UHGV virus genome: UHGV-0263263
DNA: 35,981 nucleotides
Direction: 5' to 3' (one strand)
DNA from: a virus
The notes under the pieces were generated by a model. That model saw nothing but the letters and a program-made list of their open reading frames with translations, was not told the origin of the DNA and did not search any database. The position numbers and the translations under genes were made by a program. This document shows, piece by piece, positions 1 to 35,981 of the stretch (positions within the stretch are counted from its first letter, which is position 1; each line of letters starts with the position of its first letter).

Positions 1-607
1 ATTTTTTTTCTCTATGTTTAGCAAACATAACTGTAGATGCTAAAATCATAGGTATTATATAAATAAACATTGATATATTATCACTGAACAATGATAGGGC
101 GCTGATTATTGTAGCAATGATTAAGTTGACTATATTTTCTGTTGCATCGTATTTTTCAAGTAAAATTATTGACGCAAAAATGAAAGCATATGTCCCCATA
201 TGGATGCAAGCAGAAAGCATGGAAGTAACTGCCATATCAGCAGGAAAAACCACAAAAAATGTTAAGAGAGATATTGAAAGAAGCTTGTTTTTACTTAAGC
301 TAAACATTAGCCATATAATAACCACATATAGTATTGATGGTATTACAAAAGCCAATGATTTTGAGTACCCAACTATTAGTGAGGATAACGCATAAATCAC
401 AACCTCAGTAAAGTAAAAGGGCACCGTGGAAAGCTCCCACCCCCTTAACAATACATTTCCACCAGCCACCTCTTTTCCTAGCAGCAGGACTGTGGCCCCA
501 TCAGTTATAGTTGGGAAATTATTAAAACTAAGTGTGTAATATAGTTGGTATAATACACACGTTAATAAAACCGAGAACGGTATATATATTAAATATTTCT
601 TAAGCAT
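1..607 (-). CDS. gtrC: GtrC-family serotype-specific O-antigen glucosyltransferase, N-terminal 202 codons (polytopic membrane part); ORF runs off the window start
   Basis: Manual translation from ATG at 607 (4 nt overlap with gtrB stop) gives [28 protein letters not shown]..., very hydrophobic, with no stop down to nt 2. Low GC. Operon position downstream of gtrA-gtrB. Frame is continuous with minus ORF 35128..35981 if the sequence is circular. Confidence 0.6.
117..395 (+). other. Listed ORF that is antisense to gtrC; probably not a gene
   Basis: Lies fully inside the better-supported minus-strand gtrC reading frame. AT-rich region generates chance ORFs. Confidence 0.2.
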
Positions 608-1523
608 GTTTATCTCTTTTTAAAATGTACTTAGGGCGGTTTTTTACCTCAATATAAATCCTTCCGATATACTCTCCAAGAACACCGATCCCAATAAGTT
701 GAACGCCGCCTAGGAAGAGTACTGATACCAACAGAGAAGGATAACCGCGCACGGGATTACCAAATAAAAAAGTTCCAAGGATCATCCATGTTCCATAAAG
801 AAACGCTAATCCTGCAACTAACAGGCCGATATATGTCCATATACGAAGCGGGAATGTTGAGAAACTGGTTATTCCCTCGAGAGCCAGATTCCACAACTTC
901 CATCCGTTGAATTTTGTGCTACCAGCAACGCGTTCTGCGCGAGCATACTCAACGACATCGGTTATTCCTCCTACCCAACTCAATATACCTTTCATGAACA
1001 GGTTGCGCTCTGGCATGAGCTTGATGTTTTCGACTACTTCACGAGACATCAGTCGGAAATCGCCAACGTTCTCTTCAATCTGCGGATTACTGATTTTGTT
1101 ATGCAGCTTATAGAACCATTCAGCCGTCTTGCGCTTAAGCCTGCCATCTGTGGAGCGATCTGTTCTTTTAGCCAGAACCATATCCGCACCGGCAACCCAC
1201 TTATTGATAAGATGAGGAATTACCTCGATAGGGTCCTGCAGGTCCACGTCAATCGGTATAATCGCATCGCCGGTTGCATGGTCTAGCCCGGCGAATAGCG
1301 CAGGCTCTTTGCCGAAATTGCGCGTGAATGATAGCGGCTTGACGAGAGGGTCTGATATCGCAATTGAGTTTATGATCGCTTCCGTTGCGTCCTTGCTTCC
1401 GTCATTGATGAATACTATCTCTACTTCGTATTGCTGAAGGTCTTCAAACTCTCTGACGGTTTTGTAAAAAATTGGTATCGCGTCCTCTTCATTGAAGACT
1501 GGAACGACAAGAGAAATCTTCAT
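600..1523 (-). CDS. gtrB: Bactoprenol glucosyltransferase (GT2 family), GtrB
   Basis: 307 aa starting [13 protein letters not shown]...INDGSKD with DxD-type motifs and a C-terminal 2-TM anchor. Stop overlaps the gtrC start; start overlaps the gtrA stop. Confidence 0.9.
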
Positions 1524-1882
1524 TTTTCTTCCCTAAAGACAATGTGTTTTGAATAAAAGAACCCGCAAACCAGGCTTATCAGCGAGAATTCAACAAGGGT
1601 AATGATAGGTGCGATCTGATAATAATCAGACAATTTTCCTACCAAAACGCTCATAAGACCCATGAATGTAACAAAAAGAAAATACCCCTTGACATTAGGC
1701 CTTGACTTGAATGTAAAGGCGGCATTGGCAAAGAACGAGAACGTTACTGCAGTAGCGAATGCCAGCAGATTGGCCGTAGCCTGATTTACTGAGAACAAAT
1801 AGACACCTGTCGCAAATACGAGCCAGTGAATGGCTGTGTTTAAAACTCCGACAGTCAAATATTTTGAGAATAGCTTAAGCAT
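1520..1882 (-). CDS. gtrA: GtrA-family flippase for undecaprenyl-phosphate-glucose
   Basis: 120 aa with 4 TM segments, typical GtrA size and hydropathy. First gene of the gtrABC operon. Confidence 0.8.
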
Positions 1883-1990
1883 ATGAGTGGCTTGGTTGTT
1901 TTAGAATTTAGCTGAGTTTACCACCTAAGGCCCATCTGATCAGCACTTGCAGTACGGTACTTACTCCATGTAACTGCTCAAATACCATAT

Positions 1991-20482: not shown

Positions 20483-20498
20483 GGTCGGGATTCCGACC
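20483..20498 (+). promoter_or_regulatory. Late-element copy 3, immediately after the scaffold terminator and 149 bp upstream of the capsid gene
   Basis: Exact 16-mer. Followed by CCTCGCTAACAATC. Confidence 0.6.
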
Positions 20499-21559: not shown

Positions 21560-21574
21560 GCCGCTGGTGTGTTT

Positions 21575-21600
21575 GCCGGGGTATACCCCCGGCCTTTTTT
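21575..21600 (+). terminator. Strong rho-independent terminator after the capsid gene (T7 Tphi analogue)
   Basis: GCCGGGG-tata-CCCCGGC followed by TTTTTT. Confidence 0.85.
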
Positions 21601-21616
21601 CATCTGAGGTTCTGCC

Positions 21617-22180: not shown

Positions 22181-22181
22181 C

Positions 22182-24173: not shown

Positions 24174-24174
24174 C

Positions 24175-24624
24175 ATGGTACGTAATGCAACGGCCGGGGA
24201 TATCCCGGCGCTGATCGAGCTGGGGGCGCGGATGTATATCGAGTCCCGCTATTCGCAGAATTCGCCCTTTGATGAAGAAAAATGCGCAGATCTCGCCCGC
24301 ACTCTTATTTCATCACCTGCTGGCTGTCTGCTGGTGGCCGAAAAAGACGGTGCGGTAATTGGCTGGCTGGCCGGGGGGATTGCTGAGCAGTGGTTCAGCC
24401 GCCAGTTAATGGCGTTTGAGTATGGGCTGTTTATCGCGCAGGAGCATCGCGGCGGCACAGCTGGACCGCGTCTTGCGAAAGCATTTATCACCTGGGCGGA
24501 AGAGCACGGCGCCGCGATCATAAACATGGGTATAACCACGGGCGTGCATGAAGAGCGCACCGGCGAAATGTATTCCCGTCTTGGTCTGAAACGTTCCGGC
24601 CTGCTGTATTCAATGGAGGTTTAA
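24175..24624 (+). CDS. GNAT-family N-acetyltransferase, occupying the T7 gp13 slot
   Basis: 149 aa. Acetyl-CoA motif A QEHRGGTAGPRLAKAF (R-x-x-G-x-A/G). GNAT-like beta-strand pattern. Translationally coupled to virion genes on both sides. Confidence 0.7.
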   Translation: MVRNATAGDIPALIELGARMYIESRYSQNSPFDEEKCADLARTLISSPAGCLLVAEKDGAVIGWLAGGIAEQWFSRQLMAFEYGLFIAQEHRGGTAGPRLAKAFITWAEEHGAAIINMGITTGVHEERTGEMYSRLGLKRSGLLYSMEV

Positions 24625-24626
24625 AA

Positions 24627-25094
24627 ATGTGTACTGGCGTGGAAATTGCGGCTATTGGCGCATCCGTGCTTGCCGCCGGTGGCGCGGTTTATAGCGGGCA
24701 GCAGCAAAAGAAAATGTCCAACTATCAGGCTGCACAGGCGGAAGCTGATGCCGAGGCTGCACAAGCAGCTGCACGGGTGGAAGCCGATCGCATCCGTAAA
24801 GCCGGACGGGCACAGGCAGCTGCAGCGCGAGCTTCTCTTGCCGGGTCTGGTGTGGACACGGGGGAAGGCACAGCGCTGCGTATTCAGTCCGATATCGTTG
24901 GCGATGCTGAGCAGGATGCTTACCAGACCATTCTGAACGGTACGAACCAGAGCGCCAGACTGAATGCGCAGGCGTCCGCTGACCGTATCTCTGGCCGTAA
25001 CGCTTCAACATCTGGCTACATCAGCGCGGGTAGCTCTGTGCTTAGCGCGGGCGGTACCGCATATAACGGCTGGAAAAAAGCAGGGAGTAAATAA
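24627..25094 (+). CDS. Internal virion protein (T7 gp14-like)
   Basis: 155 aa. Ala/Gln-rich. GGAGG SD. Synteny. Confidence 0.55.
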   Translation: MCTGVEIAAIGASVLAAGGAVYSGQQQKKMSNYQAAQAEADAEAAQAAARVEADRIRKAGRAQAAAARASLAGSGVDTGEGTALRIQSDIVGDAEQDAYQTILNGTNQSARLNAQASADRISGRNASTSGYISAGSSVLSAGGTAYNGWKKAGSK

Positions 25095-25096
25095 CC

Positions 25097-27805
25097 GTGA
25101 GAATTCCAACGGGTAATTTTGGTAACGTTACGCCGCAGGCGAATCCTACCCGCGTCAGTGTCAGCAGTGTCGGGCAAATAGGTAACGCAGTTGCAGGTCT
25201 GGGGGCAGCTTTAGGTCAGACTGCTGATGAGGTACAGCGCACGCAGGATAAAGCGGATGTGGCGGCAACCCAGGCTATCCTTACCGATCTTGATGCGAAA
25301 TCCAGTGACCGCTGGGAAAACCCGGAGACCGGCGCGCTGGTAACCCGGCAGGGGTTCAAGTCTTCCGGCGTTGGTCTGGACATGGATAAGCAGGACTCTT
25401 CCGACTATGAAGAGGCCCGTAAACGCGTACCGCAGAGCCAGCTGCAGTATTTTGACGCGCAGTGGAAAGCGGGTCAGATCCGCCGAGCCAGCACTTATAA
25501 CAGCTTTGAGCGTAGCCAGACAGAACAGGCGCAGCGCCAGCAGCTCGACGCGACGGTTAAATCGTCCGTTGAACAGGAAGCGGGGGCGTTTGACGATCCG
25601 CAGGCTGCCGCATTGATTCGCAGCGCCCGGCAGCACTCAATTTCATTGTATGGCCAGGCGCAGGGGTGGTCACAGGAGCAAATAGACCAGGCTGTTTCTG
25701 AGGCCAACTTACGCGCTATGGATCAGCGAGCCCAGAACTATGCGGTAACCAATCCTCAGGGCTGGTTAAATGGCGATTTTCCTGTGAAAGACACCGGTGC
25801 GCTGGATATGCGCGCTATCGGCATCGTTGAATCCGGCGGTAAGCATTTTAATGCTGACGGCAGCATTATCACTTCGCCCGCCGGCGCGCAGGGAAAATAT
25901 CAGCTGATGCCAGATACGGGCAAAGAGCTGGCGGCGAAGCGCGGAGTTGAATATAACCCGGCAGATGAAGAACAAAATGCCCTGCTGGCGAGCGATTACG
26001 CAAATCAGCTGTACGGTAAATATGGCTCTGAAATGCTGGCGGGTGCTGCCTATAACTGGGGTATGGGTAACGTTGACAAGCTGATCGCGAAAGCCGGAGA
26101 CCCACGTAAAGGCGAAATATCTGAGGCTGATTTTGTTCGGCAGCTACCTGCGGAAACTCGCGGGTGGCTGGCCCGGTACCGTAAAAATAAAACCGGTCTC
26201 GATCCTGTATCGGTTAACAAAATCGATAACATCGCTGAGTCGAAAATCCGGGAGCAGCGTACGGCGCTGCGCGAGCAAATTGACCCCATCCTGAATAATA
26301 CGATGGCGCAGCTGTACAACGGGGAAGTGCCTGACGCGATGCCCGATAAGGCATCAATTATGTTTGCGTACGGTGAACAAGGGGCAAAGGCAGTTAAGCA
26401 GCTCGATATCGCGATCAACAACGCCAAAACCTTCCAGGCGATACAGTACGTATCCCCGGAACAGCAGCAGGCAGAAATCGTAAAGCTAAAGCCTCAGGCA
26501 AATGACCCTGATTATGCGCTCAAGCTCGATGCGTATGGCAAGCTCGGCGCGCTGGTGCAGAAAAGTAACGAGGCGATACAGGCGCAGCGTGATACCCGTC
26601 GTTTTAACGAAGCGCTGTCTATGGGCGAGAAACTCGACCCTACCAATAAATCCATGCAAAAAGCCGCCGACGCCACGCCAACGGCGCAAAACTTCCGGAT
26701 TAACGACGCCACCACCCATGACGGTATTGTGCAGCAGGTGGCCCAGACCGGGATCATTCCTTCGCAGGTAACCACCCAGTTATCGGCGATTTCCCGCGCG
26801 CGCAGTCCTGAGGCGGTCCGTCAGGGAGCCGAGTTATTTAATCGTCTCTATGACACAGATCCCGCGTCTGTTGGCGACATGCCAAAGGATATGCAGGGAT
26901 TTTATCTCACCGTTAAACAGCTTACCGATTCTGGTATGGCGTCCGAAACTGCTATCGAGCAGGCGCAGAATCTGACCTACAACCAGACCGATGCGCTCAA
27001 AGCGCAACTGGCCTCAACCCAGAGCACCAAGGAGTACAAAAAAGACCGCAGCAAAGCGATGGATTCTGCTGTGAGCAGCATGTCGGGCTTCTTTAGCTGG
27101 GGAAATCCATCTGCCGACGATCAGACGCCGGAGGCCGCACGTTTTCGCAATGATTATCAGTCGCTGTACGACATCAATTACCGCACTACCGGCGGTAATG
27201 CGGATGCGGCCAAAAAAATGACCAACCAGCAGATCGCCCGCACCTGGAGTATCAGCGAGGTTAACGGCGACGCAAAACTTATGAAATACGCGCCGGAGGC
27301 ACTCTATAACTACGGCCCATCGGGGTGGCAGGCGGCGCAGTGGAAAGAAGAAAAAGAAAACCTGATGTACGGCGAGCGCAAGGGCGAGATCACCACCAGC
27401 CCGGCTCAGCTTGGGATCACTTCCGGTAACGCGGCACCTGTCACCAGTAAAACGCCGGAGTCGCGTATTGGCGGTGATCTGGAAATTACCCCTGATGTGC
27501 TGACGGCCCGTAATGGCGATTACGCCATCATGGTGCGAACAAAAGATAAGGATGGTATCGAGGCGGTACAACCGTTCTACGATTCTTACGGCAGGCCGAT
27601 GCGCTGGAAACCGTCACTGGAAGAGTGGGCGCCATACAAAAAAATGCAGGAAGAGCGCGAAGAACATGATCGCAATGAGCTGCAACGCGGGCAGGATATT
27701 CGTGGGTTCAAAGATAAACACCGTGCGCTCGATGAGCAGTACAAGCGCCTGCATAACGAGCGCATGGACAGGGTTAAAAATTACTTTTCGTGGAGCACTG
27801 AATAA
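25097..27805 (+). CDS. Internal virion (ejectosome/core) protein with soluble lytic transglycosylase domain
   Basis: SLT motifs ...GIVESGGK...AGAQGKYQLMPDTG...AYNWG. 902 aa. GTG start with AGGGAG SD. Confidence 0.75.
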   Translation: MRIPTGNFGNVTPQANPTRVSVSSVGQIGNAVAGLGAALGQTADEVQRTQDKADVAATQAILTDLDAKSSDRWENPETGALVTRQGFKSSGVGLDMDKQDSSDYEEARKRVPQSQLQYFDAQWKAGQIRRASTYNSFERSQTEQAQRQQLDATVKSSVEQEAGAFDDPQAAALIRSARQHSISLYGQAQGWSQEQIDQAVSEANLRAMDQRAQNYAVTNPQGWLNGDFPVKDTGALDMRAIGIVESGGKHFNADGSIITSPAGAQGKYQLMPDTGKELAAKRGVEYNPADEEQNALLASDYANQLYGKYGSEMLAGAAYNWGMGNVDKLIAKAGDPRKGEISEADFVRQLPAETRGWLARYRKNKTGLDPVSVNKIDNIAESKIREQRTALREQIDPILNNTMAQLYNGEVPDAMPDKASIMFAYGEQGAKAVKQLDIAINNAKTFQAIQYVSPEQQQAEIVKLKPQANDPDYALKLDAYGKLGALVQKSNEAIQAQRDTRRFNEALSMGEKLDPTNKSMQKAADATPTAQNFRINDATTHDGIVQQVAQTGIIPSQVTTQLSAISRARSPEAVRQGAELFNRLYDTDPASVGDMPKDMQGFYLTVKQLTDSGMASETAIEQAQNLTYNQTDALKAQLASTQSTKEYKKDRSKAMDSAVSSMSGFFSWGNPSADDQTPEAARFRNDYQSLYDINYRTTGGNADAAKKMTNQQIARTWSISEVNGDAKLMKYAPEALYNYGPSGWQAAQWKEEKENLMYGERKGEITTSPAQLGITSGNAAPVTSKTPESRIGGDLEITPDVLTARNGDYAIMVRTKDKDGIEAVQPFYDSYGRPMRWKPSLEEWAPYKKMQEEREEHDRNELQRGQDIRGFKDKHRALDEQYKRLHNERMDRVKNYFSWSTE

Positions 27806-30696
27806 TGCCGGTATACGCCACCCCTGAAGAACTGAATAACGGATTCACTCCGGCGGGTAATGTCCTGGCTGCACCTACCGGATTTGATGTGCCTTTGCCT
27901 GAAGGTACCAACCCGGCACCTCAGCAGGATGAGCCGTCTGTGTGGGGCGCTGCATTTCGTCAGAATAACCTGCTTGGCGAAATGTTCCGCCCGGCCAAAC
28001 AGTTTGAGCCGGTAGAGGGTTATAACCCTTATGCGGATAAAACCGAGCTGCACGGGTACGAACAGTGGGGCTCGGCGTTTGCTGATTCCCGATCGCCGGA
28101 GGAGACCGCCTGGCTGAAACAACAGATTGACGACGAAAACGAGGACCGCAGGGTACTTTCCGAGGCGGGCGGCGAAGGTGTCCTTGCCAGCATTGCAGCC
28201 GGAGTGGTAGACCCTGTCACCGTAGCTTCCATGTTTATCCCCGGTGCGCAGGGCGGCGCGGTTGCCCGTATCGCGTCGCAGGCTGCAATCGGTGCAGCTG
28301 CAACAGCAGCGAGCGAGGTTGTCCTGAATAACCAGCAGATCACCCGCACATGGGGCGAAAGTGCTTCCCACGTGGCAGCCGGTGCGTTGATGAGCGGTGT
28401 ATTTGCAGCAGCCGGCGCAGCGCTGTCACCCTCTGTTCGCACTGCTGCCACGCGCGAAGTGGCTGATGCGCTCGATAATATGAGTATCACGTCAGCGACG
28501 GACACCGCTGCTGCATCGCTCCCCGAAGGAGGTAGCGTCGGCGCGGCGAGAATCAGTGAGGCAACGCTCGAGGATCTCACTCCGGCAGCTGGCGGTCCGG
28601 TCGGTAAACTGGCACGTAAGGCGGGCAGTTATCTGACGCCGTTTACCCGTCTTATGGAGTCACCGTCGAAAACCTCCCGCCGTACGGCGCTGGAGCTGGC
28701 GGAGAATAACTACACCCTGCAGGGTAATGCCCGGGGTATCGAGACGCCCGTCGCGGCAGAAACCCGCGTGCGCGGGTGGCGTCGTGAAGAGGCTGCCGTC
28801 GTGGTGACGAACAAACAGGCCTACAGCCAGTACAAAGCGGCTGGCGGTGACCTGAGCTTTTCACAGTTCCGTGAGGAAGTTGGCAACGCCATGCGCAGCG
28901 GCGATGTGCATGCTAATCCGGTGGTGCAGGAAGCGGCACAGGCAATGCGCACCGTGGTTAACCGGGTGAAAGTGGCGCAGCAAAAGCTTGGCCTGTTGCC
29001 GCCTGACGAGGAACTGAAAGCCATCGGTCAGGAGAGTTATTTCCCGCGCGTGTACAAAGTCGGCAAGATCGTTAACGAGCGCGATAAATTCCGCGACATG
29101 CTGGTCGACTGGTGGTCTCGCGGTGAGAAAACCATGTCTCGCGAAGAGGCTGAAATTACGGCTGATGCCACGATCAATAAAATTGTCGGCGCAAAAATAC
29201 CGCAGGATTTTGCGAACGTCTTTATGGTGAAAGCGGCTGGCAGCACCCGGTCGCGTACGCTCAGCGTTCCCGATCGCCTGATGAAAGATTATCTGGAGAG
29301 CGACGCCAATTATGTGCTGCAGCGTCATATCCGCGAGGCGTCAGCAGAGGTTGAGCTGACGCGCGCATTCGGTAATAAATCGCTGGAAAAGCAGCTCAAG
29401 GATATTCAGGATGAATACGATGCGCTGATGCGCCAGAACCCCAAAGACCAGGCGAAGCTGGCGAAAGCCCGCGATAACGATATTCGCGACATCACAGCGC
29501 TGCGCGACCGCCTGGCGGGTACCTACGGCATGCCGGACGATCCATCATCATTTTTCGTACGCGCCGGTGCGTTCCTTCGCAGCGCTAACTTTGTCACCAA
29601 GCTGGGCGGTATGACCGTTTCCGCTATTCCTGATCTCGCGCGTGGTGTGATGGTTAACGGGTTTGGCAATACCATGCGCGGTTACTCTGCGCTGATAACC
29701 CGGTCGCCGGCATTCAAGGCTAGTCGCGCCGAACAGTTAAAAATGGCCGTCGGGCTGGAGACCATACTCCATACCCGTGCGCGTACGATGGGGGACCTGG
29801 TGGACAGTTCCGCACGAACCACGGCGGTAGAAGCGGGTATGGAGCGCGTCACCGATGCGTTCGGCAAGCTCACGCTGATGGGCCACTTCGACGATATGAA
29901 CAAATCTGTAAACGGCATGATCACCTCCGACGGCATTTTGTCCGGCGCGTTCACTGGCCGCCGCCTTGCCAAGCTCGGCATTAACGACAATATGGCCGCG
30001 CGTATCCGCAGCGAATTCGAAAAGCACGGCGAGGTAATCAATGGCTGGCATATCGGCAATTTTGAAAAATGGGACGATCAGCATGTGGCTGGTGTCTTCC
30101 AGTCGGCGGTGCTCAAAGACGTTAACAATACCGTTATCACACCGGGGATCGGCGATACACCACTGTGGGCCAGCACGCCGCTGGGTAAAACTATCTTCCA
30201 GTTTAAATCGTTCGCTACCGCGTCCTACAACCGTGCAACGCTGGGCGGCCTGCAGGAAGGAACCGGTCAGTTTTATTACGGTACCGCTTTCCAGATTGGC
30301 CTCGGCGCACTGACGTACGCGCTGAAACAGTCTGCAAACGGTAAAGAGGTTGACTGGTCGCCTCAGAAACTCGCCATTGAAGGTATCGACCGTTCCGGTA
30401 TTCTCGGCCCTCTGATGGAATATAACAACATGGCAGAAAAAGCCTCCGGTGGTATGGTGGGGTTGGGTGCACTGCTAGGTACCGGAACACAGTCACGTTA
30501 TGCCAGCCGTGGTTTTATCGGCTCTGCGCTTGGGCCAACGTTCGGCCTGCTCGATACCGTTACCGATGTGACCGCTGGCGTGCTCAACGGTGATGCTGGC
30601 GATCGGGTACTGCATAACGTGCGTACGCTGCTGCCGGGTAATAATCTTTTCTGGATAGCACCGCTGATAAATCAGGTTGATCCCGGTATGAAATAA
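27805..30696 (+). CDS. Internal virion core protein (T7 gp15/gp16-like large ejection protein)
   Basis: 963 aa. ATG overlaps the upstream stop (TAATG). Synteny. Confidence 0.6.
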   Translation: MPVYATPEELNNGFTPAGNVLAAPTGFDVPLPEGTNPAPQQDEPSVWGAAFRQNNLLGEMFRPAKQFEPVEGYNPYADKTELHGYEQWGSAFADSRSPEETAWLKQQIDDENEDRRVLSEAGGEGVLASIAAGVVDPVTVASMFIPGAQGGAVARIASQAAIGAAATAASEVVLNNQQITRTWGESASHVAAGALMSGVFAAAGAALSPSVRTAATREVADALDNMSITSATDTAAASLPEGGSVGAARISEATLEDLTPAAGGPVGKLARKAGSYLTPFTRLMESPSKTSRRTALELAENNYTLQGNARGIETPVAAETRVRGWRREEAAVVVTNKQAYSQYKAAGGDLSFSQFREEVGNAMRSGDVHANPVVQEAAQAMRTVVNRVKVAQQKLGLLPPDEELKAIGQESYFPRVYKVGKIVNERDKFRDMLVDWWSRGEKTMSREEAEITADATINKIVGAKIPQDFANVFMVKAAGSTRSRTLSVPDRLMKDYLESDANYVLQRHIREASAEVELTRAFGNKSLEKQLKDIQDEYDALMRQNPKDQAKLAKARDNDIRDITALRDRLAGTYGMPDDPSSFFVRAGAFLRSANFVTKLGGMTVSAIPDLARGVMVNGFGNTMRGYSALITRSPAFKASRAEQLKMAVGLETILHTRARTMGDLVDSSARTTAVEAGMERVTDAFGKLTLMGHFDDMNKSVNGMITSDGILSGAFTGRRLAKLGINDNMAARIRSEFEKHGEVINGWHIGNFEKWDDQHVAGVFQSAVLKDVNNTVITPGIGDTPLWASTPLGKTIFQFKSFATASYNRATLGGLQEGTGQFYYGTAFQIGLGALTYALKQSANGKEVDWSPQKLAIEGIDRSGILGPLMEYNNMAEKASGGMVGLGALLGTGTQSRYASRGFIGSALGPTFGLLDTVTDVTAGVLNGDAGDRVLHNVRTLLPGNNLFWIAPLINQVDPGMK

Positions 30697-30733
30697 GTAG
30701 CAATATCCGGTAAAACAAAACACGGTGATAAAA

Positions 30734-31054
30734 ATGCGCAAACTTTCTTTTATGTTAACTGGGTTTATTCTGGCCTACTCAACTGTCGCGAGTGCTACGG
30801 TATTTGGTGGCTCGAATCTAGGCTTTAGTGGTTATCCTGAGTTTTCGGATTCGGAGCCGACACCTCCTTATGATCGCAATGAATATTCAATGCAAGCGTA
30901 TAAAAGTGAGGTTGAAAGGTATATCCAAAATGCGAAGGATTATACCGAAAACGCTGGTAACGATATGAAACGTATTCAGGAATCCCAGGACGATGCGATT
31001 CAAAAAGCAAACCGCGTTGTAGAGGAATATAACCAAACAGCAAGGGGGTATTAA
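30734..31054 (+). CDS. AT-rich moron: secreted/periplasmic small protein with Sec signal peptide
   Basis: MRKLSFMLTGFILAYSTVASA|TV signal peptide. Lower GC than its neighbours. Inserted between the core-protein and terminase genes. Confidence 0.55.
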   Translation: MRKLSFMLTGFILAYSTVASATVFGGSNLGFSGYPEFSDSEPTPPYDRNEYSMQAYKSEVERYIQNAKDYTENAGNDMKRIQESQDDAIQKANRVVEEYNQTARGY

Positions 31055-31056
31055 TC

Positions 31057-31072
31057 GGTCGGGATTCCGACC
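31057..31072 (+). promoter_or_regulatory. Late-element copy 4, 46 bp upstream of the terminase small subunit gene
   Basis: Exact 16-mer starting 3 nt after the moron stop codon. Confidence 0.6.
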
Positions 31073-31118
31073 TTAAACCCACGCCATCATAGCCCTGTAT
31101 TCACTACGGGGCTTTTTT

Positions 31119-31460
31119 ATGCATCAGGATTACAAAACACGCCTTACCGCACTGAGTGATAAACTCACCGATGTGGTGCTCGAAGAAGCCGATCCGGAAA
31201 ACTGGCCGGGGGCGGGAAAGAAACCGAGCGAACTGACCAAGGATGAACGTGGCGATCGCTACTGGGATAAGAAGAACGCAGCCGCATCCCTGACGCTGCT
31301 GATTAAGGTTCACTCCCTGATTGGCATGCAAACGCGCGGCGGTACGCCATCCGATAATCCCGGTCAGGATGATGAAGCCTTTGCGCTGGGCAAGCAGGTT
31401 TCAAAAGCTGAGCGAGAGGCGGCCGCCATTATTGAGCGCCTGCAGAAAGGGAAAAAATGA
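31119..31460 (+). CDS. Terminase small subunit (candidate)
   Basis: 113 aa, charged. Directly upstream of, and overlapping, the large terminase gene. No SD; preceded by a hairpin plus T6. Confidence 0.45.
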   Translation: MHQDYKTRLTALSDKLTDVVLEEADPENWPGAGKKPSELTKDERGDRYWDKKNAAASLTLLIKVHSLIGMQTRGGTPSDNPGQDDEAFALGKQVSKAEREAAAIIERLQKGKK

Positions 31461-33067
31461 TTTCGTTCCTCGCCTTCTTCTTAATGTGGGCGGAGCGAAT
31501 GAACTGGGACGTTCCGGACTGCCACTATCAGGCCTGCCACTGGCTGGAGCATCGCGGAAATCTCGCGGTGCTTCGCTGTTTCCGTGGTTTCGGTAAATCA
31601 ACGATCCTCGCTGTCTATAACGCCTGGCGGTATTACTGTGATCGCCAGTACCGCATTCTGCATCAGTCTGAATCAGACGGAACCGCGTATAAAACCAGCC
31701 GTGACACTCAGAACGTCCTGCGTAACCATCCGCTGACCAAAGGCATGCTTCCTGACGGGCAGGGAACCGTTGAGCAATGGTGGGTTAATGGTGCGCTGGA
31801 TTTACGTAACGGCAGCATGTACGCAAAAGGCATCCTGTCTAACGTAACCTCAGCGCGCGCCAACGAATGCCAGAACGACGACGTAGAGGTACCACGTAAT
31901 ATCCAGACTCCGGAGGCACGCGAAAAGCTGCGCTATCGCCTGGGAGAGCAAACCCACATCCTGATCCCCGGCGGACGCAAACTTTATATCGGTACACCGC
32001 ACACGCATGACAGCCTTTATGATGAGGTGGAGTCTATGGGCGCCGACTGTCTTACCATCCGGTTATTTGATAAAGAAAAGCGCATTGAAGCGAAAGAGGC
32101 CTCGCAGCTGCGCTACGCAGTGCCTTTTCGCCCGGATTATGTTTTTGCTGGCATCCACAAGGCGGCGCGGCTGTTGGTCGAAAACGTGGATTATAAGCTG
32201 ACCGCCGACGGCGTTGAGTTTGCGGACGCACCGGACACGGTTATCGATTTTTATGCAGACTGCGCCTGGCCTGAACGGTTCACCCGTGAAGAAATGGAGA
32301 ACCGCCGTAAAGAAACCCGCACGATTAACGAGTGGGATAGCCAGTATCAGCTGCACAGTAAACCCGTCGGAGACGTTCGCCTCGACCCTGACCGCATCCG
32401 GGAATACAACATTCATCCACAAATTCGCTATGCGAACCGTACGGCTTCGCTGTGGCTGGGTAACGTGCAAATCGTTGGTGCTGTTGCCTGGTGGGACGTG
32501 GCCACTGGCAAGGTTAAAGCTGACGCCTCTGCATTCTCTCTGATGCTTACGGATGCCAGGGGGCATTTGTACTGGCATATCTGCCAGGAGCTTACCGGGG
32601 AGCTGGCAGAGTTCGACGATAACGACAAAATCGCCGGCGGGCAGGTAGCGCAGATCAGAGAGCTGGTGCTCAAATATCAGATCCCCGTGGTTTGTGTCGA
32701 AGTAAACGGCCCGGGCAGCTTCGCGGGTAAATTACTGCGTCAGGCGCTCAAGGGGACGGGCTGCGGCGTCCGGGAAGAGTTCAGTATCACCAACAAGCAG
32801 AAACGCATCCTCGATGCGTTTGAAGCGCCGCTGTCCTCGCGGTTCCTGTGGGCTCACACCGACGTGCTCGACGGTCCTGTCTATGACCAGATGCGCGACT
32901 TTAACCCCGCACTGACCAACCAGACAGACGACTTTATCGACTCCGGCGCGGGAGCAATAAGTCAGACCCCAGTACGCATCGGGAAAGTGGTCGGGATTCC
33001 GACCGGACATACGCGCGAAGATTGGCAGTTAAGTGACGGAGATCATCTGGTCGACGTCGATTACTAA
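31457..33067 (+). CDS. Terminase large subunit (T7 gp19-like)
   Basis: 536 aa. Walker A-like FRGFGKST. C-terminal nuclease-like acidic residues. Synteny. Confidence 0.8.
   Translation: MISFLAFFLMWAERMNWDVPDCHYQACHWLEHRGNLAVLRCFRGFGKSTILAVYNAWRYYCDRQYRILHQSESDGTAYKTSRDTQNVLRNHPLTKGMLPDGQGTVEQWWVNGALDLRNGSMYAKGILSNVTSARANECQNDDVEVPRNIQTPEAREKLRYRLGEQTHILIPGGRKLYIGTPHTHDSLYDEVESMGADCLTIRLFDKEKRIEAKEASQLRYAVPFRPDYVFAGIHKAARLLVENVDYKLTADGVEFADAPDTVIDFYADCAWPERFTREEMENRRKETRTINEWDSQYQLHSKPVGDVRLDPDRIREYNIHPQIRYANRTASLWLGNVQIVGAVAWWDVATGKVKADASAFSLMLTDARGHLYWHICQELTGELAEFDDNDKIAGGQVAQIRELVLKYQIPVVCVEVNGPGSFAGKLLRQALKGTGCGVREEFSITNKQKRILDAFEAPLSSRFLWAHTDVLDGPVYDQMRDFNPALTNQTDDFIDSGAGAISQTPVRIGKVVGIPTGHTREDWQLSDGDHLVDVDY
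32989..33004 (+). promoter_or_regulatory. Late-element copy 5, inside the terL 3' end, 84 bp upstream of the tailspike gene
   Basis: Exact 16-mer. Encodes VVGIPTG within TerL. Confidence 0.5.
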
Positions 33068-33087
33068 CTTGCCAGAGGTTTCGCATC

Positions 33088-34782
33088 ATGTCGGTACCGA
33101 ACCAGACTCCATATATAATTTATAACGCCAACGGCCTGACCACCGTTTTTCCCTTCGAGTTCTATATCATCAACTCCGGTGATATTCAGGTCACAATTAA
33201 CGGCACCGTTATTACTAGCGGGTACACGGTGTCCGGGGTAGGGAATATCGGCGGCGGGGATGTGATTTTTATCACCCCGCCAGCCAGCGGATCGGTTGTG
33301 ATGCTGGAGAGGGTAGTGCCAATGTACAGGCTGACCGATTATCAGGATAACGGTGACCTCCTGGCCGACACGGTTAATAAGGATTTTGACCGCCTCTGGA
33401 TGGCGATACAGCGTTACGGTATACATCTCGGTCTGGCACTTCGCCGCCCGCTGTTCGGTGGTCCCTTTGATGCAGAGGGTTATCGTATTGAGAAACTGGC
33501 AGATCCGGTAAATGCGCAGGACGCAGTGACTAAAAAGTATTTAGAAAGCGTATCGTTAGCCCGGGTGCTTCGCGTTCCAGAGGCATCAGTTGGGTTAGTA
33601 CCTTCGCTGGATCTGCGTCGCAATAAACTGCTGGCATTCAATAATTCAGGTGACCCTATTCCGGTGTTGCCAGAATCAGGGTCTGCCTCTGATGTGATGA
33701 TAGAACTGGCGAAGCCCACAGGATCTTCACATATCGGATATCAGTATCCTGCGGATGGCAGTGTGCCAAGAACGGTAGAAGATAAACTTGGAGATTTCGT
33801 TAGTGTGCTGGACTTTGGCGCAAAAGGCGATGGCGTAACAGATGACTCTATAGCCTTTCGAGATGCCATTGCTACTGGAAAAACGGTGTATGTCCCTGAT
33901 ACATCAGGTAACAACTTGGGGTGTGTTTATAAAGTAAGCGGTATTGATGTAACAACTATTAAACTTGTTGGAGAGTCTCAGCGCGTCGAAATACAACCAG
34001 TATCAACGGCAACACGAATATTAAACTTAAAAGGTACATCCCCAGCATCACCGGCAAGAGGATGTTTTATACGAAATATTACGTTTTCTTCCCCAGCAAC
34101 TTCTGAAGGTCTCTTTCATGATGCTGTGCTTTTGGAGAACACAAACCAGTGCGACGTATCAAACGTCACTCTATACCTAGTTCAGTTGACAGTGCTCGGG
34201 CATAATTACCTACGGCTTGATAAAATTAATGGTATAGGAGCGAGGTTATCTGTTTCAAGGCACAGCGGAGATAGCATTGACAATGCAGTAGGGTTATTAC
34301 TTAAAGACTCGTTTTTAGCCTACAACAGCGAAGTTGACATAAGGAATAGTACAGACACAAGAATAGTTGATACATATATCGCAAACAGCAAAAGTGACGG
34401 TAGAACAGGACTAAATCACGATTATGACGCTGAGTTTTTGCCAGGAGGTTCAGTATTCTTTGGCGGTGTCTTGATGATTACAAACGTAATTTGCGAATGC
34501 GTGTGCGTAATCAAATATACAGCACTATCTAAGTTTACAGGATTCTGGGCTGGCGCCTTTTATGGTAACGGACTGACGTTACTTAACTCATACGGCTTAC
34601 TTGCAACAAACTGTACTTTTCACTACAGCACAGGCGCGGGTGTTTATGCCAGAAATCTTACAGATTGCACATTTGTTTCAAGCAGTTTTACCAACTCAGA
34701 GGGCGGAGGGTTTGATCTTGATGAATCAGTAAGAACAACATTTGTAGCTTGCACCTTCAGCAAATTTGAACTTTACGAATAA
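33088..34782 (+). CDS. Tailspike/tail fibre: T7 gp17-like N-terminal tail-attachment domain plus right-handed beta-helix (pectate-lyase-like) receptor-binding/depolymerase domain
   Basis: N-terminal ~200 aa resemble the conserved gp17 adaptor domain. VLDFGAKGDGVTDDS motif. Repeated x-C-T-F beta-helix rungs. GC drops sharply after about nt 33720. Ends at a TAA that is in frame with the next ORF. Confidence 0.8.
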   Translation: MSVPNQTPYIIYNANGLTTVFPFEFYIINSGDIQVTINGTVITSGYTVSGVGNIGGGDVIFITPPASGSVVMLERVVPMYRLTDYQDNGDLLADTVNKDFDRLWMAIQRYGIHLGLALRRPLFGGPFDAEGYRIEKLADPVNAQDAVTKKYLESVSLARVLRVPEASVGLVPSLDLRRNKLLAFNNSGDPIPVLPESGSASDVMIELAKPTGSSHIGYQYPADGSVPRTVEDKLGDFVSVLDFGAKGDGVTDDSIAFRDAIATGKTVYVPDTSGNNLGCVYKVSGIDVTTIKLVGESQRVEIQPVSTATRILNLKGTSPASPARGCFIRNITFSSPATSEGLFHDAVLLENTNQCDVSNVTLYLVQLTVLGHNYLRLDKINGIGARLSVSRHSGDSIDNAVGLLLKDSFLAYNSEVDIRNSTDTRIVDTYIANSKSDGRTGLNHDYDAEFLPGGSVFFGGVLMITNVICECVCVIKYTALSKFTGFWAGAFYGNGLTLLNSYGLLATNCTFHYSTGAGVYARNLTDCTFVSSSFTNSEGGGFDLDESVRTTFVACTFSKFELYE

Positions 34783-34794
34783 AGGAGTTTTAGG

Positions 34795-35094
34795 ATGGCA
34801 TCGTTAAATCAAGCATATGGACTGAACTGCGGGAGTAATAGCAGCCATACTAAGATCATAGGGTGTAACTTTACAGGTAATACCAGCGATAAAAACATAA
34901 TTGGGGTAGGAAGTTACAAAACATGGTTCTGCACCGGGGTTCCTGACACATTGCTGTCAAATTATGGTAGCACCGCAGAAAGACCATCTAGCCCACCACC
35001 AGGATTTGAATTCTTTGACACTCAAATTGGATTGCCTATATTTTGGAATCCAGTTACTAACCATTGGATAAGGGCGGACGGAGTTGATGTATAA
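34795..35094 (+). CDS. C-terminal tailspike segment or separate small tail protein (same frame as the tailspike, separated by a single TAA)
   Basis: Own AAGGAG SD. Continues the beta-helix-like rungs (IIGCNFTGNTSDKNIIGVG). Low GC. Confidence 0.5.
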   Translation: MASLNQAYGLNCGSNSSHTKIIGCNFTGNTSDKNIIGVGSYKTWFCTGVPDTLLSNYGSTAERPSSPPPGFEFFDTQIGLPIFWNPVTNHWIRADGVDV

Positions 35095-35097
35095 GCA

Positions 35098-35119
35098 AAT
35101 GGCGGCATTTGCCGCCATT
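35098..35119. terminator. Hairpin between the convergent tailspike and gtrC genes (possible bidirectional terminator)
   Basis: AATGGCGGC-attt-GCCGCCATT in an AT-rich context. No clean U-tract. Confidence 0.4.
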
Positions 35120-35127
35120 AAATATCA

Positions 35128-35981
35128 TCATTCTATATTTATATTCTTATCATATGTTAAAATGAAGACATTACAAACATATTCTATTGAATGGGGAGTT
35201 CCAAACTCGGTTTTTACTATGTTAACCTGAGTATCGTCAGGTAATATAAAAAAATTGTTTCCTTTGTTGTACCATTCATTGTTTGTAAGCCATCTATCTC
35301 TTACAACCTTACCATTTTCAAACTTAATGTTAGCAATTTTTAAAGTTGAGTCTATGCCGACTGAGTTTGTATAGTCAAAGGTGGCATACCCAAACTCCCC
35401 GCCACTTTGTTTTATCTTTTCGCTTATGCAAGCAAACTGATCGTGCTTCTCATTTGATTCTTGTATGTTTATTGTTGAAACTCCAGATGCCATTCCAGCA
35501 AAAAATACGGAAAGAAGTATATATTTATTTTCATATTTTTCTCTTGATACAAAAATTACTAGCATTAAATATACAGGCACAAGGTATCTAATAGTCCAAA
35601 TATTTCTAGGTAGGTTGCTTCCGACATATGCCGCCAACATAAGCACAATTGAAGAAATTATCAGTATATCAGTGAATGATAAACATCTAAATCTTAATGC
35701 CCTTTTAGCGGCAAAATAGATAAGAGCAAGGAAACCTAAAAACCTAGAAAATATAGAAAATGTGTCATAGGATAACTTTAATGGCTGCCCAAATATGTTG
35801 GCATTAAAGAATAGTAATGTACCCTGTATGGCTGTATTTATGTTGTTTGATATGTTCTCATACGTCACCACCCTTATGTCGTTTATTCCAGGTAAGTGGA
35901 ACCCGTTTTGCACTGAAAATCCATATTTAATAAGTTTTGATATCAAAATTGATACCACAGCACTAAATGCTAGCGTTAAAT
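35128..35981 (-). CDS. gtrC: GtrC-family glucosyltransferase, C-terminal part (last TM segments plus periplasmic domain); open to the window end
   Basis: No in-frame stop between the listed GTG (35958) and the window end. Frame and composition are continuous with the minus ORF at 1..607. Joining the two gives a 486-aa polytopic protein with a C-terminal soluble domain. Confidence 0.55.
   Translation of the reverse strand, partial: LTLAFSAVVSILISKLIKYGFSVQNGFHLPGINDIRVVTYENISNNINTAIQGTLLFFNANIFGQPLKLSYDTFSIFSRFLGFLALIYFAAKRALRFRCLSFTDILIISSIVLMLAAYVGSNLPRNIWTIRYLVPVYLMLVIFVSREKYENKYILLSVFFAGMASGVSTINIQESNEKHDQFACISEKIKQSGGEFGYATFDYTNSVGIDSTLKIANIKFENGKVVRDRWLTNNEWYNKGNNFFILPDDTQVNIVKTEFGTPHSIEYVCNVFILTYDKNINIE

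What the first reader, a model, noticed from the sequence alone, without database searches (positions are those of the whole stretch)
33700..35981. Low-GC host-range cassette: swapped tailspike receptor-binding domain, small tail ORF and gtrCBA lie in one compositionally foreign block
GC falls abruptly about 210 codons into the tailspike gene, after the conserved gp17-like anchor domain. It stays low through the beta-helix domain, the 99-aa ORF and gtrC, which wraps to 1-607, then rises gradually through gtrB and gtrA. The receptor-binding depolymerase and the O-antigen-modifying (superinfection-excluding) genes are adjacent and convergent. A module exchange would therefore change adsorption specificity and the lysogen serotype together.
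Basis: seen in the sequence. Interest (0 to 1): 0.55.

Follow-up and report, generated by a model that had tools for sequence, protein, structure and literature searches.

The report
Portable tailspike plus O-antigen-modification cassette
A 4.2-kb low-GC block in this Enterobacter prophage carries both the part of the tailspike that recognises the host surface sugar and the genes that alter that sugar in the lysogen; the same block sits in an unrelated phage type, so it moves as one unit, and its tailspike is unusually split into two genes.

Summary
The window is a circularly permuted 36-kb temperate phage with T7-like structural genes, 99.99% identical to an Enterobacter hormaechei prophage. 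GC3 falls from 0.55 in the tailspike anchor to 0.34 in the beta-helix, 0.37 in the 99-aa ORF and 0.30 in gtrC. It is 0.47 in gtrB and 0.45 in gtrA, against 0.60-0.73 in backbone genes.

The low-GC block (33709 through the window junction to 1949) is one gapless 4,222-bp match to contractile-tail-type Enterobacter prophages. The central ~3.2 kb of that match shows 100% identity in every 100-bp bin. A second cassette (a different beta-helix plus a different gtrC) also occurs in both backbones, so the specificity pair is exchanged together. The conserved flanks are the tailspike linker on the left and gtrB/gtrA on the right.

- The block is not compositionally uniform.
- gtrB and gtrA act as conserved arms rather than swapped cargo.
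- GC does not rise steadily through gtrB and gtrA.

New point: the 99-aa ORF is the tailspike's own C-terminus, encoded as a separate gene. It covers the last beta-helix rungs, a linker and a beta-prism. This split is conserved, under purifying selection, in five phage backbones. The sugar specificity remains unknown.

The parts
33088..33699 (+). Tailspike N-terminal anchor (aa 1-204), T7 gp17-like. This is the backbone-specific part.
   Evidence: Pfam PF03906 matches aa 8-153 at 48.7 bits against a cutoff of 25.2. It is 98-100% identical in same-backbone prophages. E. coli relatives stop matching at 33526-33539. GC3 is 0.549.
33709..33937 (+). Left homology arm: the conserved linker and start of the beta-helix (LAKPTGSS...VLDFGAKGDGVTDDS).
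   Evidence: This is the only left-side match between the window and L041, which has a different backbone and a different cassette: 229 bp at 83.4%. Exchange breakpoints fall at 33702/33709 (L009, L045), 33826 (L005-7), 33896 (L004) and 33937 (L003). The same peptide is present in tailspikes anchored by PF18668.
33088..34782 (+). Tailspike large subunit gene (564 aa): anchor, linker and right-handed beta-helix, ending ...FELYE-TAA.
   Evidence: Pfam PF12708 and PF13229 match. CBA120 TSP3 (6NW9) matches aa 218-337 directly, and the family profile matches TSP3 at E 2e-106. The identical protein is listed on 941 contigs, named Enterobacter hormaechei by its sources.
34780..34797 (+). Split junction: TAA stop, AAGGAG Shine-Dalgarno sequence, 7-nt spacer, ATG.
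   Evidence: Read directly from the sequence. The same junction occurs in L008 and L009. L009 has a 1-nt deletion in the spacer that changes the relative reading frame.
34795..35094 (+). Tailspike small subunit gene (99 aa): last beta-helix rungs, linker and a three-stranded sheet of a beta-prism II.
   Evidence: It is collinear with the last ~95 aa of one-chain homologues. Residues 42-99 match TSP3 residues 572-627 at E 3.6e-12. In the AF2 model residues 54-99 have pLDDT about 80 with three strands, while residues 1-53 are below 50. dN/dS against L009 is 0.05.
35098..35119 (.). GC-rich hairpin between the convergent small ORF and gtrC; a likely terminator.
   Evidence: The inverted repeat AATGGCGGCA/TGCCGCCATT is read directly. 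The scan flags a terminator-like site on the minus strand.
35128..35981 (-). gtrC, 3' part (continues at 1-607).
   Evidence: The ORF is continuous across the junction, 486 aa. Hydropathy shows about 10-11 hydrophobic segments followed by a hydrophilic C-terminal ~110 aa. It is 98.8% identical to L008 gtrC but only 29-33% to the gtrC of cassettes B and C.
1..607 (-). gtrC, 5' part. The start codon is at 607 and overlaps the gtrB stop by 8 nt.
   Evidence: PHROG matches cover the C-terminal region only, and there is no Pfam or NCBIfam model hit.
600..1523 (-). gtrB (bactoprenol glucosyltransferase family). Its 3' part lies in the identical core; the rest forms part of the right homology arm.
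   Evidence: Pfam PF00535 at 110.7 bits; PHROG GtrB at E 4e-176. It is 89-96% identical in amino acids across cassettes A, B and C.
1520..1882 (-). gtrA (flippase family), right homology arm.
   Evidence: Pfam PF04138 at 52.8 bits; PHROG GtrA at E 1e-49. It is 85-100% identical among relatives.
1883..1949 (-). Region upstream of gtrA; the right end of the shared cassette.
   Evidence: The 4,222-bp match to L045-L047 ends at 1949. GC returns above 0.5 here. The match to L041 also ends at 1949.

Best explanation
The block 33709-35981 plus 1-1949 is a portable 'specificity pair' cassette carried by temperate Enterobacter phages. Its variable core encodes two things. The first is the O-antigen-recognising beta-helix of the tailspike, built here from two polypeptides of 564 aa and 99 aa. 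The second, convergently transcribed, is the serotype-specific membrane transferase GtrC.

The core is flanked by two conserved stretches: the tailspike linker on the left and gtrB/gtrA on the right. Homologous recombination in these two arms, most plausibly between co-resident prophages, replaces helix and gtrC in one double crossover. The recombinant phage then adsorbs to a new O-antigen, and its lysogen modifies that same O-antigen.

Shown: the anatomy, the composition, the co-variation, and the presence of the identical cassette in two unrelated backbones.

Inferred from P22, BTP1 and epsilon34: that GtrABC glucosylates the O-antigen and thereby blocks this tailspike.

Inferred from homology to CBA120 TSP3: that the 99-aa protein completes the helix and forms the trimeric beta-prism cap of the mature spike.
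For: Identity of the window. It is 99.99% identical to an E. hormaechei prophage from 27088 to 3425, after which host genes follow.

Same backbone, different cassettes:
- L003 has helix B and a 492-aa gtrC.
- L005/L006 have helix C and a 489/484-aa gtrC.
- L004 has helix D and an acyltransferase.
- L008 has helix A' and a gtrC 98.8% identical to the window's.
- gtrB stays at 89-96% amino-acid identity while the gtrC types are only 29-35% identical to each other.

Homology to L006 stops at 33826 and resumes at 649, then runs at 97.5% through gtrB, gtrA and the lysis genes.

Different backbone, same cassette. L045, L046 and L047 have contractile-tail baseplate genes and a PF18668 anchor, and L046 lies on a 4.9-Mb isolate contig. 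All three match window 33709 to 1949 without gaps over 4,222 bp with 167-169 mismatches. Every 100-bp bin from about 33760 to about 978 is 100% identical.

Cassette B behaves the same way. L003 (podovirus-type backbone) and L041 (contractile-tail type) share 3,858 bp at 96.6%, and the bins are mostly 99-100% identical from the helix through gtrC into gtrB.

Arms only. The window and L041 match only at 33709-33937 (83%) and 595-1949 (82%). L045 and L041 are 98% identical up to the tailspike linker and 93% identical from gtrB onward.

Linkage within hosts. All 8 distinct contexts of the exact 564-aa protein carry the 486-aa gtrC or a disrupted copy of it.

The split tailspike. A small ORF follows the tailspike in L004, L009, L011 (P22-like) and the virulent Kagunavirus AV104, in different relative reading frames. 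dN/dS is 0.05.

Functional precedent. A convergent tailspike/gtr pair in which GtrC protects the O-antigen from the phage's own tailspike is described for BTP1 (PMC4413052).
Against: - Glucosylation, blocking of adsorption and the target O-antigen are not shown.
- GtrC has no curated family hit. It is assigned by position, size, membrane topology and 29-33% identity to the gtrC genes in the same position of cassettes B and C, themselves unannotated.
- The units can separate. L009 carries helix A'' and the small ORF with an acyltransferase instead of gtrC. Against L008, the helix core (33852-34651) is only 68-85% identical while gtrC is 97-100% identical.
- Several cross-species relatives have no modification gene next to the tailspike.
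- The composition is not uniform, so the cassette was itself assembled from parts with different histories.
- Catalytic residues could not be transferred from TSP3 with confidence.
Confidence: 0.85

Rival explanations
1. Adjacency without linkage. The site between the tailspike and the lysis genes is simply a place where accessory genes accumulate. The receptor-binding domain and the modification gene are replaced independently, and they look linked only because both are selected by the same host O-antigen.
For: - L009 pairs helix A'' and the small ORF with an acyltransferase.
- Against L008, the helix core has diverged while gtrC is nearly identical.
- Helix and gtrC differ in GC (0.41 against 0.33), and each gene class has its own characteristic GC in all relatives.
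- Some relatives have nothing at this site.
Against: - A single gapless segment spanning helix, small ORF, terminator, gtrC and part of gtrB is 100% identical in every 100-bp bin between two unrelated backbones. The same holds for cassette B at mostly 99-100%.
- All four backbone-by-cassette combinations keep the helix and gtrC together.
Confidence: 0.12
2. The tailspike is a nonsense-truncated pseudogene in a decaying prophage. The 99-aa ORF is its dead remnant, noticed only because the TAA happens to be in frame.
For: - In the window the stop is in frame with the downstream ORF.
- Many E. hormaechei copies are deletion derivatives lacking head and tail genes.
- Gene callers often omit the ORF.
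Against: - The stop falls after the same ...FELYE motif in helices only 35-38% identical and attached to four other anchor types.
- A small ORF follows in L004, L009, L011 and AV104 in frames +2, +2 and +1.
- AV104 is an isolated virulent phage.
- dN/dS is 0.05 with pS 0.52.
- An AAGGAG sequence lies 7 nt before the ATG.
Confidence: 0.04
3. The low GC does not mark recent foreign origin. It is the steady-state composition of gene pools (surface-glycan enzymes and spikes) that circulate among many enterobacterial hosts, or it results from amino-acid and membrane-protein constraints.
For: Every helix type in the relatives has GC 0.41-0.47 and every gtrC or acyltransferase 0.29-0.37, whatever the backbone or host (E. 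coli, Salmonella, Enterobacter, Trabulsiella).
Against: - The deficit is strongest at third codon positions (0.30-0.37 against 0.60-0.73), so amino-acid content is not the main cause.
- This view explains the composition but not the shared cassette, so it complements the main explanation rather than replacing it.
Confidence: 0.3
4. The 99-aa protein is a transient assembly chaperone for the 564-aa spike, analogous to tail-fibre assembly proteins, and is absent from the mature virion.
For: - C-terminal trimeric domains act as auto-chaperones in the K1F, phi29 and P22 spikes (PMC3357383 abstract).
- The N-terminal half of the protein is not autonomously folded in the AF2 model.
Against: - It is homologous to parts that stay in the mature TSP3 crystal structure: beta-helix up to residue 574, a linker, and subdomain D4 at 598-627.
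- Residues 1-44 correspond to beta-helix rungs, which need to stack on the helix.
- No peptidase or chaperone family matches.
Confidence: 0.2

Closest known systems
Convergent tailspike-gtrABC pair of P22-like Salmonella phages (P22, BTP1, epsilon34)
   Same: The tailspike and gtr operon are adjacent and convergent. gtrA and gtrB are conserved, and gtrC is a variable polytopic membrane protein. In BTP1, GtrC protects the O-antigen from the phage's own tailspike and blocks superinfection (PMC4413052; PMC2629481).
   Different: The backbone here has T7-like structural genes with a gp17-type anchor (PF03906), not the P22 head-binding domain. The host is Enterobacter. The tailspike is encoded by two genes. 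The whole pair is shown here to be shared as one segment with contractile-tail-type prophages.
CBA120 tailspike protein 3 (ORF212; PDB 6NW9/5W6F)
   Same: Same design: a beta-helix (D3), a linker of about 23 aa, and a three-stranded sheet forming a trimeric beta-prism II (D4). The family profile matches TSP3 residues 75-627 at E 2e-106, and it is the Foldseek best hit at E 8e-28.
   Different: TSP3 is one chain, about 25% identical in the Foldseek alignment to the one-chain homologue P0033, with a different specificity. In the window the chain is cut about two rungs before the end of the helix. Equivalents of the catalytic residues Glu362 and Asp426 could not be assigned.
O-acetyltransferase genes next to the tail spike gene in temperate phages (e.g. 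Sf6 oac and phiV10, recalled from my own knowledge)
   Same: Sister loci L001, L002, L004, L009, L011 and L015 carry an acyltransferase-3 family gene in the same position, where the window has gtrCBA.
   Different: The chemistry differs (acetylation against glucosylation), and it is a single gene rather than a three-gene operon with conserved gtrA and gtrB.
Two-gene tail-fibre modules (fibre plus downstream assembly or adhesin protein, e.g. T4 gp37/gp38 and Mu/P2 Tfa) and C-terminal auto-chaperone domains (K1F endosialidase, phi29 gp12, P22 spike)
   Same: A small downstream gene, or a C-terminal domain, is needed for trimer assembly and travels together with the receptor-binding part.
   Different: There is no sequence relationship to these proteins. 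Here the small protein is demonstrably the detached C-terminus of a spike that is otherwise a single chain, and it has no autoproteolytic domain.

Membership tests
GtrABC O-antigen glucosylation operon | gtrA (small flippase-family membrane protein, PF04138) followed by gtrB (GT2 bactoprenol glucosyltransferase, PF00535) in one operon | tested here: met
   PF04138 at 52.8 bits and PF00535 at 110.7 bits, both above their cutoffs. PHROG GtrA E 1e-49 and GtrB E 4e-176. The genes overlap by 4 nt.
GtrABC O-antigen glucosylation operon | A third gene immediately downstream that is similar in size but highly variable in sequence, encoding an integral membrane protein with 9-11 transmembrane helices (criteria as in PMC2629481) | tested here: met
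   486 aa, overlapping the gtrB stop by 8 nt. About 10-11 hydrophobic segments plus a hydrophilic C-terminal domain. It is 29-33% identical to the gtrC of cassettes B and C, while gtrB is 89-96% identical. No curated model matches it.
GtrABC O-antigen glucosylation operon | Adds glucose to a defined position of the O-antigen repeat and converts the serotype | not testable with these tools
   This needs LPS chemistry or serology on lysogens.
T7 gp17-type tail fibre/spike anchor | N-terminal domain PF03906 that docks the fibre to the tail | tested here: met
   aa 8-153 match at 48.7 bits against a cutoff of 25.2. The structural genes are T7-like: PHROG head-tail adaptor (portal position), major head protein, tail protein, and a T7-type terminase domain just below the Pfam cutoff (26.6 bits against 27).
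Beta-helix tailspike depolymerase (CBA120 TSP3-like) | Right-handed parallel beta-helix followed by a C-terminal trimerising beta-prism | tested here: met
   PF12708 and PF13229 are above their cutoffs. The profile matches TSP3 at E 2e-106. The AF2 model of the one-chain homologue best matches 6NW9. In the window these parts lie on two polypeptides.
Beta-helix tailspike depolymerase (CBA120 TSP3-like) | Pair of catalytic carboxylates in the inter-subunit cleft (Glu362/Asp426 in TSP3) | tested here: inconclusive
   The profile alignment places acidic residues within one position of both sites, but the register is uncertain and the window differs from the family consensus there.
P22/BTP1-type tailspike-gtr superinfection-exclusion pair | Tailspike gene and gtr operon adjacent and convergent in a temperate phage | tested here: met
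.
P22/BTP1-type tailspike-gtr superinfection-exclusion pair | The Gtr modification blocks binding or cleavage by the phage's own tailspike | not testable with these tools
   Supported only indirectly, by strict co-inheritance of helix type and gtrC type.
Self-cleaving C-terminal intramolecular chaperone domain (endosialidase/T5 pb1 type) | Peptidase S74-type domain at the C-terminus that is autoproteolytically released | tested here: not met
   The 99-aa ORF and the end of the 564-aa ORF have no Pfam match. The small ORF is instead homologous to retained structural parts of TSP3.

The most novel reading that the evidence does not exclude
The cassette is a self-contained 'plug-in' for host range plus lysogen immunity. 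It has built-in recombination arms (the tailspike linker and gtrB/gtrA) that let it hop between podovirus-type and contractile-tail-type prophages of one host species. Its tailspike is an obligate two-chain enzyme in which the last helix rungs and the trimerising beta-prism cap are supplied in trans by a 99-aa protein. I found no description of such a spike architecture, yet it has persisted across helices that have diverged to about 35% identity and across five phage backbones, one of them a virulent siphovirus.
Probability: 0.55. Interest if true: 0.6.

Novelty: new variant of a known kind. Interest (0 to 1): 0.5.

Why it matters
The principle that a temperate phage modifies the receptor it uses is old. 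Here the comparison shows the receptor-binding enzyme and the receptor-modifying enzyme physically travelling as one 4.2-kb unit between unrelated phage backbones, and the conserved arms that could mediate the swap can be read directly from the sequence.

Three consequences follow. First, it gives a concrete rule for predicting both host range and serotype conversion of Enterobacter prophages from a single locus. Second, it suggests natural junctions for engineering chimeric tailspikes. Third, annotation pipelines that skip the 99-aa ORF will describe these spikes as truncated.

The split spike also offers a natural system for asking what the C-terminal beta-prism contributes to tailspike folding.

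Tried and rejected
- Megablast of 28000-35981 against the phage collection found nothing. tblastn of GtrC against phages also found nothing.
- NCBIfam gave no hit for GtrC, the spike or the small ORF.
- The word-indexed protein search with the 99-aa ORF returned only two proteins. The exhaustive HMMER search was needed. It showed that the ~45-aa terminal motif is widespread, while full-length stand-alone matches are rare.
- Stop-codon readthrough or frameshifting to make a fused spike was considered and rejected. The frame relation differs among loci: 0, +1 and +2.
- Dam/OxyR-type phase variation of gtr was checked. Only one GATC was seen in the 200 nt upstream of gtrA, so there is no evidence for it.
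- No tRNA is present in the window or at the prophage ends examined.
- Transfer of the TSP3 catalytic residues was inconclusive.
- Sugar specificity could not be inferred. The closest phage-borne spikes are only about 38% identical (AV104, phiKDA1).
- An assembly chimera was considered as an explanation for L045 and rejected after finding the same arrangement in isolate genomes L046 and L047.
- Literature searches for split or two-gene tailspikes found nothing. This does not prove absence, because subscription journals are not covered.
Full report
WHAT THE WINDOW IS

The 35,981-bp window behaves as a circle. A 486-aa ORF on the minus strand runs from 607 to 1 and continues from 35981 to 35128 without a stop. 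Related genomes are contiguous across that junction.

Gene content marks it as a temperate podovirus-type phage. It has T7-like structural genes: a PHROG head-tail adaptor protein at the portal position, major head protein, tail protein, internal virion proteins, and a terminase with a T7-type RNaseH-like domain (26.6 bits, just under the Pfam cutoff of 27). It also has a CI-like repressor, a tyrosine integrase, a DNA polymerase and a primase-helicase.

It is 99.99% identical to a prophage in an Enterobacter hormaechei assembly from window 27088 to 3425, where host genes begin. The identical tailspike protein is listed on 941 contigs, which the sources name E. hormaechei.

LAYOUT OF THE REGION

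- terL: 31457-33067 (+)
- tailspike ORF: 33088-34782 (+, 564 aa)
- 99-aa ORF: 34795-35094 (+)
- GC-rich hairpin: about 35098-35119
- gtrC: 35128..35981 joined to 1..607 (-)
- gtrB: 600-1523 (-)
- gtrA: 1520-1882 (-)
- holin, lysozyme and Rz: 2063-3178 (+)
- integrase: 3562-4749 (+)

CHECKING THE OBSERVATION

The compositional anomaly is real and large. Windows of 500 bp outside the block average GC 0.557 (sd 0.044), while the block reads 0.30-0.47. The signal lies at third codon positions, so it does not come from amino-acid content:

| Feature | GC3 |
|---|---|
| tailspike aa 1-204 | 0.549 |
| aa 205-253 | 0.367 |
| aa 254-564 | 0.337 |
| 99-aa ORF | 0.370 |
| gtrC | 0.302 |
| gtrB | 0.468 |
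| gtrA | 0.446 |
| backbone genes | 0.60-0.73 |

The best single changepoint is 33776, with support 33462-33927. This agrees with 'about 210 codons', although the fall is a slide over 400-500 nt.

Two details are wrong. The block is not homogeneous: GC is 0.41 in the helix, 0.33 in gtrC, 0.45 in gtrB and 0.40 in gtrA. GC also does not climb steadily through gtrB and gtrA. gtrB peaks at about 0.52, gtrA drops again, and the return above 0.5 comes at about 1950.

THE TAILSPIKE IS MOSAIC

Same-backbone Enterobacter prophages are 95-98% identical over the 963-aa internal protein gene and over the region from upstream of terL into the tailspike. They carry four helix types:

- L003: type B, one chain of 659 aa
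- L005/L006: type C, 664 aa
- L004: type D, 561 aa plus a 103-aa ORF
- L008: type A', 91% identical in amino acids

Nucleotide identity to the window stays at 95-100% and then collapses at 33937 (L003), 33896 (L004) and 33826 (L005-7). E. coli relatives stop earlier, at 33526-33539, which is the end of the Pfam T7-tail domain.

The helix family is also found fused to at least three other anchors: the P22 head-binding domain PF09008, Tail_spike_N PF18668, and an unrelated second T7_tail (PF03906) anchor.

THE MODIFICATION GENE CHANGES WITH THE HELIX

- Helix A goes with the 486-aa gtrC. L008 gtrC is 98.8% identical, and all eight distinct contexts of the exact spike protein carry this gtrC, two of them disrupted.
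- Helix B goes with a 492-aa gtrC.
- Helix C goes with a 489/484-aa gtrC.
- Helix D and both E. coli relatives go with acyltransferases.

The gtrC types are 29-35% identical to each other, whereas gtrB is 89-96% and gtrA 85-100% identical. Against L006, homology resumes at 649, about 16 codons before the gtrB stop, and continues at 97.5% through gtrB, gtrA and the lysis genes. The variable segment is therefore helix, small ORF and gtrC, bracketed by the conserved linker and gtrB.

THE DECISIVE COMPARISON

Prophages of a different kind carry the same cassette. These have Dit-like, sheath-initiator and Gp10_C baseplate genes, a tailspike anchored by PF18668, and no other similarity to the window in the 10.9-kb segment compared (window 30000 to 5000).

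L045, L046 (a 4.9-Mb isolate contig) and L047 each match window 33709 to 1949 in one gapless alignment of 4,222 bp with 167-169 mismatches. Every 100-bp bin from about 33760 to about 978 is 100% identical. Identity then declines to 75-89% through the rest of gtrB, gtrA and its upstream region. Both ends of this match fall at the compositional boundaries.

Cassette B behaves the same way. L003 (podovirus type) and L041 (contractile-tail type, from a complete chromosome) share 3,858 bp at 96.6%, with most bins at 99-100% from the helix through gtrC into gtrB.

The window (podovirus type, cassette A) and L041 (contractile-tail type, cassette B) match only in the two arms: 33709-33937 at 83% and 595-1949 at 82%. 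L045 and L041 are 98% identical up to the linker and 93% identical from gtrB onward.

All four backbone-by-cassette combinations therefore exist, and helix and gtrC stay together in each.

LIMITS OF THE CASSETTE VIEW

- The helix plus small ORF also travels alone. L009, a third prophage type, shares 33702-35082 at 81% and then carries an acyltransferase.
- Within the cassette, the helix core of L008 (33852-34651) is only 68-85% identical to the window, while 34652 to 770 is 97-100% identical.
- Every helix type in the relatives has GC 0.41-0.47 and every modification gene 0.29-0.37. The low GC is therefore a property of two gene pools rather than a mark of one donor.
- Cross-species relatives in Raoultella, Pluralibacter and Rosenbergiella have no modification gene at this site. 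E. sichuanensis has gtrCBA there, and Trabulsiella has an acyltransferase-like gene.

THE 99-AA ORF IS THE DETACHED C-TERMINUS OF THE SPIKE

In the window a TAA follows ...FELYE, then AAGGAG, a 7-nt spacer and ATG, in the same reading frame.

One-chain homologues at 37-42% identity (30% for one distant cluster) cover 95-100% of a query made by joining the two ORFs. Small ORFs from five loci align collinearly with the last ~95 residues of those homologues, and the cut falls in a loop that reads GEGGIANDGP in the fused forms.

The stop after FELYE or FEVYE recurs in helices that are only 35-38% identical to the window's and that sit on different anchors. A 99-105-aa ORF follows in each of these:

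- L004
- L009
- L011, a P22-like Salmonella prophage
- AV104, a virulent Kagunavirus, where it is annotated as hypothetical

The relative reading frames are 0, +2, +2 and +1. This excludes readthrough and argues for independent translation initiation.

Between the window and L009 the small ORF has pN 0.043 and pS 0.516, giving dN/dS 0.05.

Residues 42-99 match CBA120 TSP3 residues 572-627 at E 3.6e-12. In the TSP3 crystal structure the beta-helix ends at residue 574, a 23-residue linker follows, and residues 598-627 form a three-stranded sheet that makes a trimeric beta-prism II with an Asn/Trp/Pro core (PMC6517402).

AF2 of the 99-aa protein alone gives a confident three-stranded sheet for residues 54-99 and no confident fold for residues 1-53. 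AF2 of the fused homologue P0033 shows a lower-confidence loop (mean pLDDT 67 for residues 491-500) at the equivalent of the split. Five more rung strands, the linker and the sheet follow it. The best PDB match for that model is TSP3, and the family profile aligns to TSP3 end to end at E 2e-106.

My reading is that the small protein stacks onto the end of the large subunit's helix and forms the trimeric cap, giving a 3+3 spike. A purely transient chaperone role is the main alternative. I found no paper describing such split tailspikes.

HOW IT MOST LIKELY WORKS

The spike docks to the T7-like tail through aa 1-204. The helix binds, and probably cleaves, an E. hormaechei O-antigen.

After lysogeny, GtrA, GtrB and GtrC add a glucose to that O-antigen so that the spike no longer recognises it. 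This is the mechanism established for P22 and for BTP1, where gtr and the tailspike gene are likewise convergent (PMC4413052; the gtrA/B-conserved, gtrC-variable rule is in PMC2629481). That step is inferred here, not shown.

Exchange is by homologous recombination in the linker and in gtrB/gtrA, plausibly between co-resident prophages. The arms and the recombinant products are observed; the event itself is inferred.

NOVELTY

The tailspike-gtr pairing and modular tailspikes are known. Three things appear to be new:

- the pairing in a temperate Enterobacter phage with T7-like structural genes;
- the demonstration that the whole pair is one mobile segment with readable arms, shared between podovirus-type and contractile-tail-type prophages;
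- the conserved two-gene spike.

The sugar specificity remains unknown. The closest phage-borne spikes are about 38% identical.

Noticed in passing
window 30691-31051 (ORF 30725-31054, +): A 361-bp low-GC insertion (the ORF itself has GC 0.42) encodes a 109-aa protein with a signal-peptide-like N-terminus. It lies between the 963-aa internal virion protein gene and the small ORF upstream of terL. It is absent from L001 and L003-L008 but present in L033-L040 and in the E. coli EC2 remnant (L002). No family hit was found. It is probably a separate accessory gene (moron).
   Followed up: partly
window 10682/27812; loci L033, L034, L037: Several E. hormaechei assemblies carry a deletion derivative that joins window 10682 to 27812. 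About 17 kb of replication, head and tail genes are lost, but the internal protein gene, terL, the tailspike, gtrCBA and the lysis genes are kept. This is consistent with host retention of the conversion genes.
   Followed up: partly
L037 about 10264-12844 (equivalent to window ~1370, inside gtrB): A 420-aa DDE transposase gene and a 291-aa beta-lactamase gene are inserted in gtrB of one prophage copy. The sizes are typical of an ISEcp1-blaCTX-M unit, but that identification rests on my own knowledge and was not tested.
   Followed up: no
L034 and L038, 8041-9500: In two otherwise identical prophage remnants, gtrC is broken into 261-aa and 203-aa ORFs. The serotype-conversion gene is therefore sometimes inactivated.
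   Followed up: no
window 3405-4704 against L002 6934-8233: The integrase region is 95% identical to that of an E. coli EC2 prophage remnant sitting next to tRNA-Thr, whereas the rest of that element is only 82-87% identical. This indicates a separately exchanged integration module. Homology to Enterobacter prophages ends at window ~3423-3426, which is the likely attachment-site core.
   Followed up: partly
99-aa ORF residues ~54-98 (window 34954-35088): The ~45-aa motif G.T..RP...G..Y.DT.LG.P.WWN...W..A.G is widespread, with 134 representative hits. It occurs at the C-termini of 500-1100-aa proteins, in up to 7 matched stretches within one 1,373-aa protein, and as 50-120-aa stand-alone proteins, including the Bacillus SPO1 gp18.5 virion protein family.
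   Followed up: partly
window 2071-2270 against L008 and L004: The holin gene is replaced (46-51% identity to L008; L004 has a different 107-aa holin) while the flanking sequence is 80-100% identical. The lysis cassette is therefore mosaic as well.
   Followed up: no
window 1883-2062: Only one GATC was seen in the 200 nt upstream of gtrA. The four-GATC Dam/OxyR phase-variation signature described for many Salmonella gtr operons is therefore not evident here.
   Followed up: partly
L003 14305-14860 and L041 10299-10854: A 556-bp stretch downstream of the podovirus-type prophage and downstream of the contractile-tail-type prophage is 99.8% identical. It may be a shared integration locus or another shared module.
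   Followed up: no
window 12651-14150 and 15851-16650: There are two further low-GC patches. The first covers the CI-like repressor gene (GC 0.445, GC3 0.434). These suggest additional exchanged modules in the regulatory region.
   Followed up: no
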